Source of the DNA: a virus
Lineage: Duplodnaviria > Heunggongvirae > Uroviricota > Caudoviricetes
Virus record (IMG/VR): IMGVR_UViG_2698536576_000006
Coordinates: 1-40,190 of that record
DNA length: 40,190 nucleotides
Strand: one strand, 5' to 3'
The position numbers and the translations under genes are program-made. The notes below the pieces were generated by a model. It ran no database searches, was not told the origin of the DNA, and saw only the letters and a list, made by a program, of their open reading frames with translations. Positions within the stretch are counted from its first letter, which is position 1. Each line of letters starts with the position of its first letter. Shown here one piece after another: positions 7,157 to 40,046 of this stretch.

Positions 7157-7720
7157 ATGAGGCTAACCGTGGGTAAGCATCACTGGAAAGTAGAAAAACA
7201 GCCTGAGTGGTACGTGAAAGCTGTCAGAAAAACTATCGCGGCGTTGCCGGGGGGTTACGCTGAAGCTGCTGAGTGGCTGGATGTAACAGAGAACGCTTTA
7301 TTCAACCGCCTTCGTGCAGATGGCGATCAGATTTTCCCGCTGGGATGGGCAATGATTTTACAGCGCGCGGCTGGCACTCACTACATTGCGGATGCTGTCG
7401 CACAGTCTGCTGGTGGGGTGTTTGTATCGCTTCCTGAAATTGAGGAAGTAGAGAACGCCGATATAAACCAGCGCCTGCTGGAAGTCATCGAACAGATCGG
7501 GAGTTACTCAAAGCAGATTCGTTCGGCAATCGAAGATGGGGTAGTGGAGCCACACGAGCAGACAGCAATTAATGATGAGTTGTATCTGTCGATTTCGAAG
7601 CTCCAGGAGCATGCGGCACTGGTCTACAAAATTTTCTGCGCTCCAGAAAAGAGTGACGCCCGCGAGTGTGCAGCTCCGGGCGTCGTGGCGTTTTGTGTCT
7701 GTGGAGAAACTAACGCATGA
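7157..7720 (+). CDS. Early regulatory protein, possibly YdaT-family (CII-position gene)
   Basis: Second gene of the rightward early operon, directly after the Cro-like gene. Stop overlaps the next start (ATGA). Family assignment tentative; start may be GTG 7169. Confidence 0.4.
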   Translation: MRLTVGKHHWKVEKQPEWYVKAVRKTIAALPGGYAEAAEWLDVTENALFNRLRADGDQIFPLGWAMILQRAAGTHYIADAVAQSAGGVFVSLPEIEEVENADINQRLLEVIEQIGSYSKQIRSAIEDGVVEPHEQTAINDELYLSISKLQEHAALVYKIFCAPEKSDARECAAPGVVAFCVCGETNA

Positions 7721-8553
7721 ACAGTTTAACGGCAAATAACCGTTTGTCGCAACAGCTGGTGGTCAGCGTCGCTGAACACCTGTTGTTACGGCATGAATGC
7801 AGATTACCAAATCACCTGGCTGTAAGTAACCACAGAGAACTTTACCTGACTGTGGGGGGCGAGTTGTGCAGGAACTTAACCGCTGGTTTCGTGACGGAAG
7901 AGGGCTTTATGTCCATGTTATTCGTTGGGAGCCAGAAACACAGCGCGTTATCTATCTTCGCAAAGACTACCCGCATGAGTGCTTTAGTCCTTTGTGGAAA
8001 TTCAGGCGTGATTTTGTTGAGTGTGAAGGACCACCAGCACATTGATTCTGCCATTCCGGGACGTTACACTGTTCAGGCACCTTATAAAGCGGGTGTCGGG
8101 ATTGGCGTCCTGGAATTGCATACGGCGACAATTGGCGCGTTAGCGTCTTTTTTGTTGCTACAACTCAGCTATACCCAAATTATGGTGGGCTGGGTGGGGG
8201 CACCGAAAGGTGCGCCGGTTTCCGTATGCGCCGGTTACGCCAACCCTGCTCAGTTCACCACCAGCGAAATTGGCGTTTCCGGTGGTGGAAGTTATCCATT
8301 GCATACGGAGGCTGCCATCATGGCTACTGTCCCAGCCCTCTCTCGTCTGAATGATGAAGACTTACATAAACTCAGTTATGTAACAACTGCACTACGTGCT
8401 CTGCGCAAGGTAACTCTTTCGGATCCGCAGGCGCATCAAGTTCTGGTAGAAACCCTTCTTAACTTGCAGGCTGAACGTATTCGTCTGGCGGATAAGGCTA
8501 ATTTTCATATTCACTGTCTCCTGAATATCAGCGGAGGGCATCGTCATGCTTAA
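7717..8553 (+). CDS. Hypothetical early protein (278 aa)
   Basis: Translationally coupled on both sides (ATGA overlap at 7717, ATGCTTAA overlap at 8546-8553). No recognisable motif; no Walker A. Confidence 0.45.
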   Translation: MNSLTANNRLSQQLVVSVAEHLLLRHECRLPNHLAVSNHRELYLTVGGELCRNLTAGFVTEEGFMSMLFVGSQKHSALSIFAKTTRMSALVLCGNSGVILLSVKDHQHIDSAIPGRYTVQAPYKAGVGIGVLELHTATIGALASFLLLQLSYTQIMVGWVGAPKGAPVSVCAGYANPAQFTTSEIGVSGGGSYPLHTEAAIMATVPALSRLNDEDLHKLSYVTTALRALRKVTLSDPQAHQVLVETLLNLQAERIRLADKANFHIHCLLNISGGHRHA

Positions 8554-8782
8554 TCCGTTGATCCTCAATATTTGCCGTTTGCTTCAGCGTAAAAAAACAT
8601 CAATTCCTACAGTTGGGCAGTGGTACACCACACCTGCAGGGCATGTTCTACGTGTTAGCCTGGTTGACCGTGAATGTCAGAAGGTGATTTGTGAACCGCT
8701 GGGCCGTAATTACCGCATCAGTATGCCGCTTATAGCCTTTTGCTCCGGAAAAAACATGAAGCATCTCGGAGGTGCAGCATGA
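8546..8782 (+). CDS. Small hypothetical protein (78 aa)
   Basis: ATG overlapping the upstream stop and ending in an ATGA overlap with the next gene; supported by coupling only. Confidence 0.35.
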   Translation: MLNPLILNICRLLQRKKTSIPTVGQWYTTPAGHVLRVSLVDRECQKVICEPLGRNYRISMPLIAFCSGKNMKHLGGAA

Positions 8783-9597
8783 GTATGGAGCTGATGGTTA
8801 AAGCGATGAAAATTCGAGTGGGTAATCCATTGCGAAAACTGGTTCTGATCAAGCTGGCTGATAATGCCAGCGATCAGGGGGAGTGCTGGCCCAGCTACCA
8901 GCATATTGCTGACCAGTGCGAGATTAGCAAACGTTCTGTGATGAATCATATTGCGGCCCTTTGTGAGTCCGGGCTGGTAAAAAAAGTCACCCGGAAAGGT
9001 GAAAAAGGTAACTCAAGTAATATCTATCTCCTTCATCTTGATGGTGCAGGAGATTCACTAGGGGGTAGTGCAAATAATTCACTATCTGGTGCAGCAAATT
9101 CACCAGGTAGTGCAGGAGTTGCACCAGGGGGTAGTGCAGGAGATTCACCCAGAACCAGTCACTCTTTTGAACCAGTCAAAGAATCAGTCAATGAACCAAT
9201 AGCTGTTGGTGCATCTGCTGATGAGTCTGTGCGAGTTCGTTCAAACCGACCGGAATACTCTCCGGAGTTTGAGCAGGCATGGCTGGCATATCCCAAACGT
9301 GCTGGTGGCAATTCAAAATCAGCATCCTTCAAAGCCTGGAAAGCCCGTTTGAACGAGGGGGTAAACCCCGAAACCATGCTGGAAGGTGTGAAACGCTACG
9401 CGGGCTGGGTATCTGCGATGGGCAATAGCGGCACACAATTTGTGAAACAGGCTGTCACGTTCTTTGGTCCGGATCGTCATTTCGAAGAATCCTGGGAAGT
9501 TCCTGCGGTATCTGCAGCCAGACGTGAGGACCCGTACTTCAAAGCCAGTTACGACAACGTGGACTACAGCCAGATCCCGGCAGGATTCAGGGGGTGA
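8779..9597 (+). CDS. Replication initiator (lambda O-like) with N-terminal winged-HTH and internal origin repeats
   Basis: N-terminal motif PLRKLVLIKLADNASDQGECWPSYQHIADQCEISKRSV is typical of phage replication-organizer HTH domains. Start set at ATG 8779 (GGAGG 7 nt upstream) rather than TTG 8740. The linker region contains the iteron-like repeats. Confidence 0.65.
   Translation: MSMELMVKAMKIRVGNPLRKLVLIKLADNASDQGECWPSYQHIADQCEISKRSVMNHIAALCESGLVKKVTRKGEKGNSSNIYLLHLDGAGDSLGGSANNSLSGAANSPGSAGVAPGGSAGDSPRTSHSFEPVKESVNEPIAVGASADESVRVRSNRPEYSPEFEQAWLAYPKRAGGNSKSASFKAWKARLNEGVNPETMLEGVKRYAGWVSAMGNSGTQFVKQAVTFFGPDRHFEESWEVPAVSAARREDPYFKASYDNVDYSQIPAGFRG
9043..9150 (+). repeat. Iteron-like direct repeats (candidate replication origin) inside the initiator gene
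   Basis: Five copies of a 17-nt core GTGCA(G/A)NANNT(T/C)CAC(C/T)A starting at about 9045, 9068, 9089, 9110 and 9134 (21-24 bp period), several with internal GTGCA/TGCAC dyad. Lambda ori iterons sit at the same position within O. Confidence 0.55.
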
Positions 9598-9599
9598 TC

Positions 9600-10088
9600 A
9601 TGAGTCTTTTGAATGAAGTTCAGAAATTCATTGAAGCCCATCCGGGGTGTACTTCCGGAGACATTGCGGATGCTTTTGCAGGTTACTCACGGCAGCGCGT
9701 TCTGCAGTCAGCAAGCAAGTTACGTCAGAGTGGGCGTGTGGCTCACCGTTGTGAAGGGGATACACGCAGACATTTCCCGCGCCAGACAAAGATATCGCCG
9801 GAGGCGGAACGGCAACCAGTTCGTGAAACCAGACCTGTGCGCAATTTCTATGTCGGCACTAACGACCCGCGGGAGATTTTATGCCTGACCCGCCAGGCTG
9901 AAGAACTGGAGTCCAGGGGCTTATACCGTCGTGCTGCAACGGTGTGGATGGCGGCATTCCGTGAAAGCCACTCCCAGCCAGAACGAAACAATTTTCTGGC
10001 GCGTCGTGAGCAGTGTTTACGGAAAAGCAGCAAGCGCGCTGTATCGGGTGATGAGTGGTATCTGTCAGGGAATTACGTGGGGGCTTAA
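9600..10088 (+). CDS. Putative transcriptional regulator with PerC-like C-terminal region
   Basis: C-terminal motif AEELESRGLYRRAATVWMAAF resembles the PerC/Pch activator signature (recalled, not searched). Start set at ATG 9600 after GGGGG RBS. Stop overlaps the next start (TAATG). Confidence 0.4.
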   Translation: MSLLNEVQKFIEAHPGCTSGDIADAFAGYSRQRVLQSASKLRQSGRVAHRCEGDTRRHFPRQTKISPEAERQPVRETRPVRNFYVGTNDPREILCLTRQAEELESRGLYRRAATVWMAAFRESHSQPERNNFLARREQCLRKSSKRAVSGDEWYLSGNYVGA

Positions 10089-15325: not shown

Positions 15326-15401
15326 GCCGACTTAGCTCAGCAGGCAGAGCAACTGACTTGTAATCAGTGGGTCACCAGTTCGATTCCGGTAGTCGGCACC
15401 A
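15326..15401 (+). tRNA. tRNA-Thr (anticodon UGU)
   Basis: 76-nt cloverleaf folded by hand: acceptor GCCGACT/AGTCGGC, D-loop with GG, anticodon stem ACTGA/TCAGT with loop CTTGTAA, T-loop TTCGATT, 3' CCA encoded. Near-identical to host thrU as recalled. Confidence 0.9.
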
Positions 15402-15404
15402 TAT

Positions 15405-15479
<75 letters not shown>

Positions 15480-37760: not shown

Positions 37761-40046
37761 ATGGTAGTGATATCAGGTGCGCTGATAGATGGCGCAGGCA
37801 TCCCCATGTCCGGATGCCACATAATTCTGAAATCCCGGGTAAACACCTCGGAAGTGGTGATGCGCACAGTTGCCGACGTGGTGACAGGAAATAATGGAGA
37901 ATATTCGTTCGGGGCACAGGTCGGGAAATATTGTGTATATCTGAAGCAGGACTGGTGCGACGAGTACTGTGTTGGCGACATTTCGGTTTACGACGACTCC
38001 AGGCCCGGCACACTGAATGACTTTCTGACTGCCCTCGATGAAGGCGATTTAAAGCCGGATGTAGTGAAACGCTTTGAGGAAATGGTGGCGCAGGCGCAGC
38101 AGAGCGCGGAAGCGGCAGCGGAAAGCGAACGACAGGCCGGGCAACATGTCGCTGATGCGCAACAAATTAAGAGCGACTGCGAGACGCTGGCGGATAATGT
38201 ACAGCAGAACGCAGAAGCCGTTGCCGAAGATAAAAAGCAGATAGCGTTACTGGCGTCATCTGCTTCGCAGGATGCGGCCCGCGCAGAGCAGGCTGCCAGT
38301 GATGCCGATAAGGCCGTTCAGAAAGCTGTCGATAAACTTTCTGATGCCGCAACGCTGACCGGTGAGGCTAAAGCCAGCGCTGAAGCTGCCGCACAAAGCG
38401 AGCAGAATGCGAAAAATCACGCTGATAATGCAGCAGAAAGCGCACGGCAGACTGTGCAGGATGTGGAGGCAACGACTATTGCCCGCAGTGATGCGGAGCG
38501 TTTTGCGGATGAGGCAGAAAACAGCGCACAGACATCAGGTGCCGCACGGGATAAATCCGTTGATGCTGCTGAACAGGCTCGTCAGCATAAAGAGGCTGCA
38601 TCTTCGGCAGCAACCAGCGCGGAAAATGCGGCAAATTCCGCACTCGGGCATGAAAACAGCGCCGCTGAATATGCCCGACAGGCTAAAGCCAGTCAGGATA
38701 CGAGCGCAGACAATGCACGGGAATCGAAACAGCAGAGGGATGAAGCGCAACGGATAGTTGATGACCTGAAGGGAACCAGCGCCACCACGACAGAAAAAGG
38801 CCTGGTGCAACTCAGTAGTGACACTGACAACGACAGTGAAGAGCTGGCAGCCACGTCAAAAGCCGTCAAAATCGTCATGGACGAGACGAAAACAAAAGCA
38901 CAGCTGGACAGCCCGGCGTTCACAGGTAAGCCAACCGCACCAACCCCGCCGGACGATGCGGTCGGGCTGGAGATGGCAAACGCGGCGTTTGTCCGCAAAC
39001 TACTCGCCGCACTGGTTGACTCGTCACCGGAAGCCCTGGACACACTGAACGAGCTGGCCGCGGCGCTGGGCAATGACCCGAACTTTGCGACAACAATCAT
39101 GAACGCGCTGGCAGGTAAACAACCGCTGAGCGATGTGCTGACGGCAATCAGTGAGCTGACGCAACGGGCAGATAATCTTCTGTGCTTTAATCAGGACGGG
39201 AATGCTTCACTGTCTCCGCTGTCAGAAAAAGCCCGTTCACTGCTGGCACAGGACATTCCTGAAGCCATGCGCCATGAGCTGGAGCTGGCAGTATCTGCAA
39301 CAATGGAGCCTCAGAGTGATATTTATGATCGCACTGCTGGTTGTCTGGCGATTCCCGGAGGGTTTGGCTTTGGCGCATTGTTCACAGATGAACAGGAAAT
39401 GCATTTCAGTGCCGAAAACGGACCGACTGAATTTTTGCAGTGGGTGCGTGAAACACCACCAGGACGCTATCTTGTCAGTCAGTACGACGGTAATAAAAAG
39501 GCCCCCATTATTAATGGCTCCGATACACTGAATTTTTCTGGTTATCTGGATATTGAAGTTCGCACAAATACCACCCCGGAGAATCAGCAAAATGCAACGA
39601 AACAGGTTATTTTTAAAGGAATAAACGGAGAGAGTTACACGGCAACAATTCACAGCAACATCACCCCTGTAACCCTGCCTGACAGCTGGGATAATGAGTT
39701 ACTTAAGGTTGATGATTTTACACAGGTACTGCGCTCTTCCACCGGCAATAGCTGGGGGAGTCCTGATATTGGGGGGCTGATGCTGGGGGCATATCTGGGA
39801 GAGGCGGAAAGTAATGAGAGCATAAGGCTGTACAGGGGGATGATTGTGCCCGGCTCACGAATTGGTCAAATAGGCATGATGGGGATACTGGGGAGTTCTG
39901 CTACAAGCAATAGCACGCCGCAATTTTATCTTGCAGACAGCAGCGTAACACCACAGTCAGGCAGTTTTGTCGCCTTATCCGGTAACAACAGAATTATGGC
40001 CAGTTCAAAGTTTTATTATGTTGGTTTATTCATGCGGGTGGCATAA
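37761..40046 (+). CDS. Side tail fiber protein (lambda Stf-like) with divergent C-terminal domain
   Basis: N-terminus (ISGALIDGAGIP...VYDDSRPGTLNDFL) and central block (KGLVQLSS...LAATSKAVKIVMDETK...LDSPAFTGKPTAPT...DTLNELAAALGNDPNFATTIMNALAGKQP) parallel lambda Stf. Ala/Gln/Glu-rich shaft between. Last ~280 residues have no recalled match. Confidence 0.8.
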   Translation: MVVISGALIDGAGIPMSGCHIILKSRVNTSEVVMRTVADVVTGNNGEYSFGAQVGKYCVYLKQDWCDEYCVGDISVYDDSRPGTLNDFLTALDEGDLKPDVVKRFEEMVAQAQQSAEAAAESERQAGQHVADAQQIKSDCETLADNVQQNAEAVAEDKKQIALLASSASQDAARAEQAASDADKAVQKAVDKLSDAATLTGEAKASAEAAAQSEQNAKNHADNAAESARQTVQDVEATTIARSDAERFADEAENSAQTSGAARDKSVDAAEQARQHKEAASSAATSAENAANSALGHENSAAEYARQAKASQDTSADNARESKQQRDEAQRIVDDLKGTSATTTEKGLVQLSSDTDNDSEELAATSKAVKIVMDETKTKAQLDSPAFTGKPTAPTPPDDAVGLEMANAAFVRKLLAALVDSSPEALDTLNELAAALGNDPNFATTIMNALAGKQPLSDVLTAISELTQRADNLLCFNQDGNASLSPLSEKARSLLAQDIPEAMRHELELAVSATMEPQSDIYDRTAGCLAIPGGFGFGALFTDEQEMHFSAENGPTEFLQWVRETPPGRYLVSQYDGNKKAPIINGSDTLNFSGYLDIEVRTNTTPENQQNATKQVIFKGINGESYTATIHSNITPVTLPDSWDNELLKVDDFTQVLRSSTGNSWGSPDIGGLMLGAYLGEAESNESIRLYRGMIVPGSRIGQIGMMGILGSSATSNSTPQFYLADSSVTPQSGSFVALSGNNRIMASSKFYYVGLFMRVA

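What the first reader, a model, noticed from the sequence alone, without database searches (positions are those of the whole stretch)
9043..9150. Iteron-like 21-24 bp direct repeats embedded in the replication initiator gene (candidate ori)
Five copies of a GTGCA...TCAC-type core with internal dyad symmetry lie in the linker region of the O-like protein and encode a low-complexity Gly/Ser/Ala peptide, followed by a more AT-rich stretch. This is the lambda arrangement, where ori iterons lie inside O.
Basis: partly seen in the sequence, partly recalled or inferred. Interest (0 to 1): 0.45.

Follow-up and report, generated by a model that had tools for sequence, protein, structure and literature searches.

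The report
Phage replication origin inside initiator gene
Five evenly spaced, mirror-symmetric DNA repeats inside a prophage's replication-initiator gene are almost certainly the sites where that protein binds to start copying the phage genome, an arrangement already known from phage lambda but not annotated for this very common family.

Summary
Five copies of GTGCA-N5-TKCAC lie at 9044-9148, spaced 24, 21, 21 and 24 bp. They are the only exact matches in the 40 kb window (0.26 expected). They sit in the disordered linker of a 272-aa initiator (8779-9597) with an HTH_36 winged-helix N-domain.

Comparison with about 290 related loci shows selection on the DNA, not the peptide:
- The same dyad occurs in either orientation and in different reading frames within one gene (49 of 84 arrays).
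- Spacing is always 21-24 bp.
- Arms are conserved while spacers vary.
- Dyad sequence changes with the recognition helix of the adjacent N-domain.

Directly 3' lies a 47-bp low-GC element with GAACCAGTCA repeats (9151-9197). It is nearly invariant across gammaproteobacterial phages, whatever the iteron type, C-terminal domain or helicase partner, and is also conserved independently of reading frame.

Best explanation: a lambda-style origin, meaning an iteron array plus an adjacent opening or loading element inside the initiator gene. The protein is not a lambda O homologue (PF13730, not PF04492), and no loader gene follows it here. Binding and origin activity are inferred, not shown. Verdict: new member of a known kind, moderate interest.

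The parts
8779..9597 (+). Replication initiator gene (272 aa). It has an N-terminal winged-helix domain, a disordered linker that contains the origin elements, and a C-terminal helical domain.
   Evidence: ORF and translation. Pfam HTH_36 scores 44.1 bits against a cutoff of 25. PHROG 270 'replication initiation protein' scores 1.3e-87. It is annotated 'replication protein' or 'replication protein O' in SfV, mEp460, cdtI and Stx2 phages. The MSMELMVKAM start is conserved in homologues.
8779..9042 (+). Coding region of the winged-helix DNA-binding domain (aa 1-88). The recognition helix is aa 51-64 and the presumed specificity residue is N56.
   Evidence: AF2 with an alignment gives pLDDT 80-93 and the elements H17-29, H40-47, H51-64, E67-73, E79-85. 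Foldseek matches generic winged helices, including the DnaD N-domain 2v79. Helix sequence tracks iteron class.
9044..9058 (+). Iteron 1, GTGCAGGAGATTCAC
9068..9082 (+). Iteron 2, GTGCAAATAATTCAC
9089..9103 (+). Iteron 3, GTGCAGCAAATTCAC
9110..9124 (.). Iteron 4, GTGCAGGAGTTGCAC (perfect dyad)
   Evidence: matches on both strands
9134..9148 (+). Iteron 5, GTGCAGGAGATTCAC. It abuts the conserved element.
   Evidence: In all homologues the last unit is followed by C(C) and then AGAACC.
9151..9197 (+). Family-wide conserved low-GC element AGAACCAGTCAC TCTTTT GAACCAGTCAAA GAATCAGTCAAT GAACC. GAACCAGTCA 10-mers lie at 9152, 9169 and 9181. It is the candidate DNA-opening or helicase-loading site.
   Evidence: - Repeats are reported.
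- The element is present with at most 2 mismatches in 170 of 173 loci.
- Nucleotide conservation is 0.89-1.00, including third codon positions, against a modal-codon fraction of 0.50 in the N-domain.
- It is read in another frame in 6 loci.
- GC is 0.40, against 0.55 in the flanks.
- All 110 assessable IMG/VR hits to the DNA pattern lie behind this N-domain.
9256..9594 (+). Coding region of the C-terminal helical domain (aa ~160-272). It is presumed to be the adaptor to the helicase or helicase loader, and it is exchangeable among relatives.
   Evidence: PHROG hits to 'DnaD-like helicase loader' and 'primosomal protein' families. There is no Pfam hit. At least 8 unrelated C-domains follow the same N-domain, array and conserved element in relatives.

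Best explanation
The five 15-bp dyads at 9044-9148 are iterons, that is, binding sites for dimers of the winged-helix N-terminal domain of the protein whose gene contains them. Together with the adjoining 47-bp conserved low-GC element (9151-9197), they form the phage's origin of replication.

Proposed mechanism:
1. The initiator is made from the early-right transcript.
2. Its N-domain dimers occupy the five dyads. The half-sites are 10 bp apart and the units are about two helical turns apart, so all dimers lie on one face of the DNA.
3. The bound proteins oligomerise and bend or wrap the DNA, like the lambda O-some.
4. This strains the adjacent conserved element, where the duplex opens.
5. 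The C-terminal domain brings in the replicative helicase.

Because this phage encodes no loader or helicase next to the initiator, it probably uses host DnaC-DnaB.

Shown here: the DNA-level constraint, the phasing, the link to the DNA-binding domain, and the modular architecture. Inferred: binding, wrapping, the opening site and the helicase route.
For: 1. The repeats are real and unique to this site.

2. Homologous initiator genes from E. coli, Salmonella, Aeromonas, Vibrio, Pseudomonas, Shewanella, Marinomonas, Xenorhabdus, Stenotrophomonas and Klebsiella phages and prophages carry arrays at the same place.
- Arrays hold 1-8 units, with a mode of 5.
- Spacings fall almost entirely at 21 (99 cases), 22 (41), 23 (44) and 24 bp (82).

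3. Selection acts on the DNA, not the peptide.
- 49 of 84 arrays hold units in more than one reading frame.
- 24 of 65 GTGMA arrays mix both orientations of the asymmetric dyad.
- Vibrio phage 236O40-1 carries the exact reverse complement of the window's unit, which encodes a different peptide.
- In the window, the third-codon positions inside the arms are identical in all five units while the central 5 nt differ.
- Among 58 distinct close relatives, polymorphic sites number 6 of 75 in units and 10 of 30 in spacers (Fisher p = 0.002). The figures are 25 of 58 in the rest of the linker and 94 of 339 in the C-domain.

4. Dyad class follows the recognition helix.
- S[KR]R[ST][AV][MI]xH goes with GTGMA-N5-TKCAC.
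- The same helix with Arg at the position of N56 goes with GTGAY-N5-RTCAC.
- SRSTVKSH and GRSTVKxH go with GGGCA-N5-TGCCC.
- SKSAV[RK]xH goes with TRTGCC..GCAYA.
- DRSTVRKH goes with GTAGGC.. dyads.
- SRKTAIGH goes with GTGTA-N5-TACAC.
- A natural chimera (P0064) joins the F451-type N-domain and GGGCA iterons to the window-type C-domain.

5. The N-domain is a confident winged helix and the array lies in a disordered linker.

6. The element 3' of the array is conserved at the nucleotide level far beyond synonymous saturation. It is read in two frames, is the lowest-GC part of the gene in hosts of every GC content, is G-poor on the coding strand as in lambda and P22, and is unstructured as ssDNA.

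7. Partner genes in relatives cover the known helicase-recruitment routes, as expected of an origin-recognition protein. They include DnaC/IstB-like, lambda-P-like, DnaB and primase-helicase genes.

8. The operon position after cII matches lambda and P22.
Against: - No binding or replication experiment exists for any member, as far as I could find. The SfV and Stx2a_1447 records annotate no origin.
- The array is physically adjacent to the N-domain coding region. Helix/iteron co-variation is therefore partly expected from linkage and shared ancestry alone.
- The post-array region is only mildly AT-rich in this window (GC 0.375-0.45). The least stable 40-mer is actually just 5' of the array, at 9001-9040.
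- Some apparently intact relatives have only 1 or 2 units: phage SI8, and the 250-aa E. coli variant seen on 64 contigs. Multi-site cooperativity may therefore not be essential.
- There are no DnaA boxes nearby, and no loader gene follows the initiator in this phage. The helicase-loading step is therefore conjecture.
Confidence: 0.78

Rival explanations
1. The repeats are bound by the initiator, but their main role is regulatory rather than origin function. Candidates are autoregulation, a transcriptional roadblock on the early-right operon, copy-number control by handcuffing, or exclusion of related phages. On this reading the actual start of replication lies elsewhere.
For: Iterons in plasmids and in lambda also serve control functions (PMC4980987, PMC3349717). 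Copy number varies from 1 to 9 among E. coli relatives, which would suit a dosage-tuning role. The flanking region is only mildly AT-rich.
Against: - No other cluster of the motif exists in the 40 kb window that could serve as the origin.
- The array always abuts a conserved low-GC, G-poor element, the arrangement expected of an origin.
- The array travels with the DNA-binding domain through exchanges of the C-domain and of the helicase partner.
Confidence: 0.1
2. The repeats and the conserved 47-bp element mark a recombination joint. The conserved DNA is kept because it lets phages swap C-terminal and helicase modules by homologous recombination, and the repeats are slippage products in a tolerant linker.
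For: At least 8 unrelated C-domains and 4 kinds of helicase partner follow the same N-domain, array and conserved element. Natural chimeras break exactly there (P0064). Unit gains look like unequal crossing-over: a 66-bp duplication in cdtI, and 21-bp unit gains elsewhere.
Against: - A 35-47-bp stretch kept 89-100% identical from Shewanella to E. coli, while synonymous sites around it are saturated, needs direct purifying selection.
- Slippage does not explain conserved arms with variable centres and spacers, mixed orientations, strict 21-24 bp phasing, or helix-specific dyads.
- Being a joint is compatible with being an origin element and is probably a consequence of it.
Confidence: 0.08
3. 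The repeats exist only to encode a flexible Gly/Ser/Ala-rich protein linker and have no role as DNA.
For: The encoded peptide is low-complexity and predicted to be disordered. Linker length varies in nature.
Against: The same DNA dyad is read in different frames and orientations, giving unrelated peptides: AGDS, ESPA, VQQI and others. Third-codon positions in the arms are fixed while amino-acid-changing central bases vary. Spacers, not units, carry the polymorphism.
Confidence: 0.03

Closest known systems
Phage lambda ori / O protein (also P22 ori / gp18, phage L gene 18, and Stx phages 933W and P27)
   Same: - The origin lies inside the initiator's own gene, in the segment that encodes the linker between the DNA-binding N-domain and the C-domain that recruits the helicase.
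- It holds 4-6 dyad-symmetric repeats spaced 20-24 bp. Lambda starts are at 39034, 39054, 39078 and 39101.
- The repeats are followed on the 3' side by an A-rich, G-poor stretch.
- The gene sits after cII in the early-right operon.
- Iteron number differs among relatives (PMC7466680), and each initiator type has its own iteron sequence (PMC8022706).
   Different: - The protein belongs to another family. The window matches PF13730 HTH_36, whereas lambda O and P22 gp18 match PF04492. hhalign probability is 3%.
- The units are 15-bp dyads with 5-bp arms, not 18-19-bp units.
- The post-array element is conserved in sequence and only about 60% AT, not an 80% AT tract.
- No P or DnaB-like gene follows in this phage.
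Iteron-type plasmid origins (RK2 TrfA, pPS10 RepA, R6K pi, F RepE)
   Same: Both have phased direct repeats bound by a winged-helix initiator encoded next to them. Both have an adjacent unwinding element containing short repeated motifs, 13-mers in RK2, which the initiator may contact as ssDNA (PMC4980987). In both, repeats double as control elements.
   Different: - Plasmid Reps have tandem WH1-WH2 domains and bind iterons as monomers. Here a single winged helix faces a dyad, which suggests dimer binding.
- Plasmid origins are intergenic and usually carry DnaA boxes. None are found here.
- Here the origin lies in coding DNA.
DnaD-like phage initiators with internal origins (SPP1 G38P/oriL, lactococcal TP901-1 and Tuc2009 replication proteins). 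Named from my own knowledge, not checked here.
   Same: The N-terminal winged helix resembles DnaD-N (Pfam DnaD_N 24.3 bits, PDB 2vn2 and 2v79). In these phages too, repeats that bind the initiator lie within its own gene.
   Different: The DnaD_N match is below Pfam's cutoff, and no DnaD/DnaB_2 C-domain was detected. Those hosts are Firmicutes. The conserved GAACCAGTCA element is specific to this gammaproteobacterial family.

Membership tests
Lambda-style origin embedded in the initiator gene (architecture, not homology) | Three or more dyad-symmetric repeats inside the initiator's coding region, between the DNA-binding domain and the C-terminal domain | tested here: met
   Five dyads lie at 9044-9148, within aa 89-124 of a protein whose folded domains are aa 1-88 and about 160-229.
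Lambda-style origin embedded in the initiator gene (architecture, not homology) | Repeat spacing close to an integral number of helical turns | tested here: met
   Spacing is 24, 21, 21, 24 in the window. Across the family the counts are 21 (99), 22 (41), 23 (44) and 24 (82).
Lambda-style origin embedded in the initiator gene (architecture, not homology) | Easily melted AT-rich region directly next to the last repeat | tested here: inconclusive
   GC is 0.375-0.45 at 9140-9200, and dG40 is -49.2 against a window mean of -55.4 (sd 4.8). Family-wide, the element has GC 0.40 against 0.55 in the flanks. This is much weaker than lambda, where the tract is 60% A.
Lambda-style origin embedded in the initiator gene (architecture, not homology) | Initiator binds the repeats and the fragment supports initiator-dependent replication | not testable with these tools
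   This needs EMSA or footprinting and an ori-plasmid assay. The only indirect support is helix/iteron co-variation.
Lambda-style origin embedded in the initiator gene (architecture, not homology) | Phage-encoded helicase loader or helicase immediately downstream (lambda P, P22 gp12) | tested here: not met
   The next gene, 9600-10088, is a PerC-family activator. Relatives do carry IstB/DnaC-like, lambda-P-like, DnaB or primase-helicase genes.
Lambda O protein family (Pfam PF04492 Phage_rep_O) | N-terminal domain matches PF04492 | tested here: not met
   No hit at E <= 0.01. The positive controls lambda O and P22 gp18 score 123 and 130 bits. hhalign of the N-domain profile against lambda O gives 3% probability.
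HTH_36 (PF13730) / PHROG 270 phage replication initiators | Match above the curated threshold | tested here: met
   PF13730 scores 44.1 bits against a cutoff of 25. PHROG 270 scores 1.3e-87 over aa 3-271. The precomputed Pfam for 120 homologues is PF13730.
Iteron-type plasmid origins (RepA/pi/TrfA class) | Host DnaA boxes in the origin | tested here: not met
   TTWTNCACA occurs 4 times in the window, none within 8 kb of the array. 4.5 are expected by chance.
Iteron-type plasmid origins (RepA/pi/TrfA class) | Initiator with tandem winged-helix domains (WH1-WH2) | tested here: not met
   AF2 shows one winged helix (aa 1-88), then disorder, then a helical C-domain.
DnaD-like initiators | DnaD N-terminal winged helix plus DnaD/DnaB_2 C-terminal domain | tested here: inconclusive
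   DnaD_N scores 24.3 bits, below the cutoff of 27. 2vn2 matches at E = 0.06 and 2v79 is among the top Foldseek hits. The C-domain has no Pfam hit but matches PHROG 1701 'DnaD-like helicase loader' at 3.2e-32.

The most novel reading that the evidence does not exclude
The invariant 47-bp GAACCAGTCA element next to the iterons is a sequence-specific origin-opening or helicase-entry site. It is shared by a whole family of gammaproteobacterial phage origins, whatever the iteron specificity, C-terminal domain or helicase-loading route. On this reading a conserved part of the initiator, or a conserved host factor, recognises it (possibly as single-stranded DNA, like DnaA-trios or the RK2 13-mers). 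That would make 'N-domain + iterons + this element' a portable origin cassette with a readable recognition code: the residue at the position of N56 would separate GTGMA from GTGAC half-sites.
Probability: 0.35. Interest if true: 0.6.

Novelty: new member of a known kind. Interest (0 to 1): 0.4.

Why it matters
- Prevalence: this initiator is present full-length in 897 of 5,426 complete E. coli genomes. It also occurs in SfV, cdtI, mEp460 and many Stx2-converting phages. None of the records inspected annotates an origin.
- Practical use: locating the origin gives a handle on the replication of toxin-converting prophages, which drives toxin gene dosage after induction. It also gives a compact initiator-plus-origin cassette for vector design.
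- Testable predictions: the family offers dozens of natural pairs of winged helix and dyad, including a single-residue switch candidate (N56 versus Arg). Arrays range from 1 to 9 units, and the same origin core is coupled to DnaC-like, lambda-P-like, DnaB and primase-helicase partners, or to none.
- The conserved GAACCAGTCA element is the one feature I could not match to anything described.

Tried and rejected
- Single-sequence AF2 gave an unusable model (pLDDT 37). It was repeated with a 28-sequence alignment.
- A sequence search of the PDB with the whole protein found only low-complexity noise.
- Comparison of the N-domain profile with lambda O gave no homology.
- Full-text searches found only primers and unrelated papers. 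The terms were the iteron and element sequences, SfV/orf39, yfdO, lambdoid iterons and replication modules. The SfV genome paper is not held, and Weigel & Seitz 2006 was not tried, so an earlier description cannot be excluded.
- I tested whether the 78-aa ORF directly upstream (8546-8782) belongs to the module. It is co-conserved in only 1 of 90 diverse loci, so I rejected it.
- DnaA boxes: none near the array.
- Hairpin potential of the conserved element as ssDNA: none, z about 0. The array itself folds better than shuffles (z -2.9) simply because of its dyads.
- Rfam: nothing at the locus.
- Promoter and terminator scan: no promoter-like site in or near the array.
- My regular expressions undercount units in the TRTGCC and GTAGGC classes, whose right arms are degenerate. 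Unit counts for those classes are therefore lower bounds.

Full report
**1. The observation**

The window holds five copies of the 15-bp motif GTGCA-N5-TKCAC at 9044, 9068, 9089, 9110 and 9134 on the + strand. Start-to-start spacing is 24, 21, 21 and 24 bp.
- These are the only exact matches in 40,190 bp. Shuffles give 0.26 on average, and none of 100 reaches the observed number.
- With one mismatch allowed, hits outside the array are no more than chance would give.
- The two 5-bp arms are inverted repeats of each other. Unit 4 is a perfect palindrome.
- Arms are invariant in all five copies, apart from the T/G at arm position 2. The central 5 nt differ (GGAGA, AATAA, GCAAA, GGAGT, GGAGA), and the spacers are 6 or 9 nt.

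**2. The gene around the repeats**

The array lies inside ORF 8779-9597 (272 aa).
- The N-terminus matches Pfam HTH_36 at 44.1 bits against a cutoff of 25. DnaD_N matches just below threshold.
- The whole protein matches PHROG 270 'replication initiation protein' at 1.3e-87.
- AF2 with a 28-sequence alignment gives a confident winged helix for aa 1-88 (pLDDT 80-93, recognition helix 51-64, wing 67-85). Residues 91-157 are disordered (pLDDT 30-45). A moderately confident helical domain follows from about residue 160.
- Foldseek finds generic winged helices, including the DnaD N-domain 2v79.
- The array encodes aa 89-124 of the disordered linker, GAGDSLGGSANNSLSGAANSPGSAGVAPGGSAGDSP.
- Upstream lies a cII-family gene at 7157-7720. 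Downstream lie a PerC-family activator (9600-10088), Dam, a LexA-like gene and RusA. This is the early-right operon of a lambdoid prophage.
- Near-identical genes are annotated 'replication protein' or 'replication protein O' in SfV (orf39), mEp460, cdtI and Stx2a/Stx2c phages. None of the records I inspected annotates an origin.
- The full-length gene occurs in 897 of 5,426 complete E. coli genomes.

**3. Is the constraint on the DNA or on the peptide?**

This is the key question. I compared 13 phage homologues, 80 IMG/VR contigs with an almost identical N-domain, 80 diverse gammaproteobacterial genomes, and 120 contigs found with a DNA pattern alone.

Every group carries an array at the same place, immediately after the wing of the N-domain. 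Four results show that selection acts on the DNA:
- Unit spacing is confined to about two helical turns: 21 (99 cases), 22 (41), 23 (44) and 24 bp (82).
- Because 22 and 23 are not multiples of three, the same dyad is read in different frames within one gene in 49 of 84 arrays.
- The asymmetric unit occurs in both orientations, GTGCA..TTCAC and GTGAA..TGCAC. Both orientations are mixed within one array in 24 of 65 arrays. Vibrio phage 236O40-1 carries the exact reverse complement of the window's unit, which encodes GESPA instead of AGDS.
- Among 58 distinct close relatives, polymorphic sites are 6 of 75 in units and 10 of 30 in spacers (Fisher p = 0.002). The figures are 25 of 58 in the rest of the linker, 94 of 339 in the C-domain and 22 of 261 in the N-domain.

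A purely coding, slippage-generated linker cannot produce this pattern.

**4. Link to the DNA-binding domain**

The dyad sequence changes with the recognition helix:

| Recognition helix | Dyad |
|---|---|
| S[KR]R[ST][AV][MI]xH (the window has SKRSVMNH) | GTGMA-N5-TKCAC |
| Same helix with Arg at the position of N56 | GTGAY-N5-RTCAC |
| SRSTVKSH / GRSTVKxH | GGGCA-N5-TGCCC |
| SKSAV[RK]xH | TRTGCC..GCAYA |
| DRSTVRKH | GTAGGC.. dyads |
| SRKTAIGH | GTGTA-N5-TACAC |

- The Arg variant is found in six loci: Vibrio D67, Aliivibrio, Erwinia (two), Izhakiella and Psychrobacter Y8A.
- A natural E. coli chimera (P0064) joins the F451-type N-domain and its GGGCA iterons to a C-domain 98% like the window's. 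The iterons therefore follow the N-domain, not the C-domain.
- Caveat: the array is only a few bases from the N-domain coding sequence, so part of this co-variation is expected from linkage alone.

**5. Copy number**

- Among 83 close relatives, 79 have five units, two have six, one has seven and one has eight. The eight-unit array of phage cdtI is a 66-bp duplication of units 1-3.
- The protein database adds E. coli variants with one unit (242 aa), two units (250 aa, seen on 64 contigs) and up to nine units (302 aa). The five-unit 272-aa cluster has 2,852 members.
- Across the diverse set the mode is five and the next most common count is four.
- Phage SI8 has a single degenerate dyad.
- Copy number is therefore variable but strongly centred. 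This resembles lambda-type origins, which have four iterons in lambda and six in 933W and P27 (PMC7466680).

**6. The element next to the array**

Directly after the last unit, always C or CC and then AGAACC, lies AGAACCAGTCAC TCTTTT GAACCAGTCAAA GAATCAGTCAAT GAACC at 9151-9197. It contains GAACCAGTCA three times, at 17- and 12-bp spacing.
- Distribution: it is present with at most two mismatches in 170 of 173 loci. It is present whatever the iteron class, the C-terminal domain (at least eight unrelated clusters) or the helicase partner.
- Conservation: its nucleotides are 89-100% conserved across 87 distinct loci, including third-codon positions and the rare Arg codon AGA. Conserved amino-acid columns of the N-domain show a modal-codon fraction of only 0.50, which means synonymous saturation.
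- Reading frame: the first 10-mer is read as RTSH and the second as EPV. In six loci the whole element is read in another frame, PEPVT(L/I)EPV.
- Composition: it is the lowest-GC part of the gene in hosts of every GC content, 0.40 against 0.55 overall and 0.43 against 0.62 in GC-rich hosts. The coding strand is G-poor and A-rich, as are the post-iteron regions of lambda and P22, but less extremely. It has no hairpin potential as ssDNA.
All 110 assessable ones lie behind this N-domain.

I read this element as the origin's opening or helicase-entry site. That is an inference from position, composition and conservation.

**7. Comparison with lambda and P22**

- Lambda O carries four 18-bp dyads at 39034-39118, spaced 20, 24 and 23 bp. 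They begin 348 nt into the gene and are followed by a tract with 60% A. P22 gene 18 has an annotated origin of the same design.
- The architecture here is the same: an origin in the linker-coding part of the initiator gene, dyad repeats about two turns apart, a G-poor element on the 3' side, and the same operon position.
- The protein is not a detectable homologue. Lambda O and P22 gp18 match PF04492 at 123-130 bits and the window protein does not. hhalign gives 3%.
- No P, DnaC-like or DnaB-like gene follows the initiator in this phage or in SfV.
- Relatives with the same C-domain type (single-linkage cluster 1) in Aeromonas and Pseudomonas carry an IstB/DnaC-like gene next door. This suggests that the E. 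coli phages rely on host DnaC. That is an inference.

**8. Verdict**

- It is an unannotated member of a well-known kind of origin, in a very common prophage family.
- The frame-independent, family-wide GAACCAGTCA element and the natural helix/dyad pairs are the parts worth experimental follow-up.
- Binding, origin activity, the opening site and the helicase route remain untested.

Noticed in passing
window 9151-9197: A 47-bp element with three GAACCAGTCA 10-mers directly abuts the last iteron. It is nearly invariant at the nucleotide level across gammaproteobacterial phages with different iterons, C-domains and helicase partners. It is read in two different frames and is found only behind this N-domain.
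   Followed up: yes
window 8077-8265: Rfam finds isrK (8077-8153, 58.9 bits) and a C4 antisense RNA (8178-8265, 80.7 bits) inside the mechanical ORF 7717-8553. This looks like a P1/P7-type or IsrK-type antirepressor-control (immunity) region between cII and the replication gene. SfV calls the equivalent ORF 'immunity region', and other relatives have an antirepressor/Rha gene here.
   Followed up: no
window 9600-10088: The gene after the initiator is a PerC-family activator (yfdN-like), not a helicase loader. Relatives of the initiator are followed by IstB/DnaC-like, lambda-P-like, DnaB or primase-helicase genes. The E. coli and Shigella phages are therefore 'initiator-solo' and presumably use host DnaC.
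   Followed up: partly
P0064, P0030, P0040, P0001, P0039 (E. coli homologues): Natural variants include:
- a chimera of the F451-type N-domain and GGGCA iterons with the window-type C-domain;
- arrays of 1, 2 and up to 9 units;
- one variant that lacks the last unit and the conserved element, probably a defective prophage;
- P0018, which has an extra EPVK 12-mer in the conserved element.
   Followed up: partly
L013 1021-1929 (Stx2a phage Stx2_12E129_yecE): This initiator has the window-type C-domain but an unrelated N-domain. It carries its own repeats at the equivalent place: several GGGAAAC-type motifs, followed by three 12-bp CAGAGAATAC repeats. This suggests that the same origin layout recurs in another initiator family.
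   Followed up: no
L176 1405-1425 (P22 ori): The last P22 repeat reads GAATCAGTCAAAC. It contains the same 10-mer as the third copy of the window's conserved element (GAATCAGTCA, 9181-9190). This may be coincidence, because P22's own iteron consensus ATCGGTAAAA is similar.
   Followed up: no
window 15326-15479: Two adjacent tRNA genes, tRNA-Thr(TGT) and tRNA-Gly(TCC), lie in the phage late or accessory region.
   Followed up: no
L197: The IMG/VR contig IMGVR_UViG_3300014700_000022 is exactly 40,190 bp long and contains the conserved-element pattern. It is probably the source of this window, a metagenome-derived viral contig.
   Followed up: no
window 8987-9040: The least stable 40-mer of the region (9001-9040, GC 0.30) lies just 5' of the array, in the wing-coding part of the N-domain. 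A terminator-like hairpin with a T-run sits on the minus strand at 9002-8987. The low GC here is not conserved in GC-rich relatives.
   Followed up: partly
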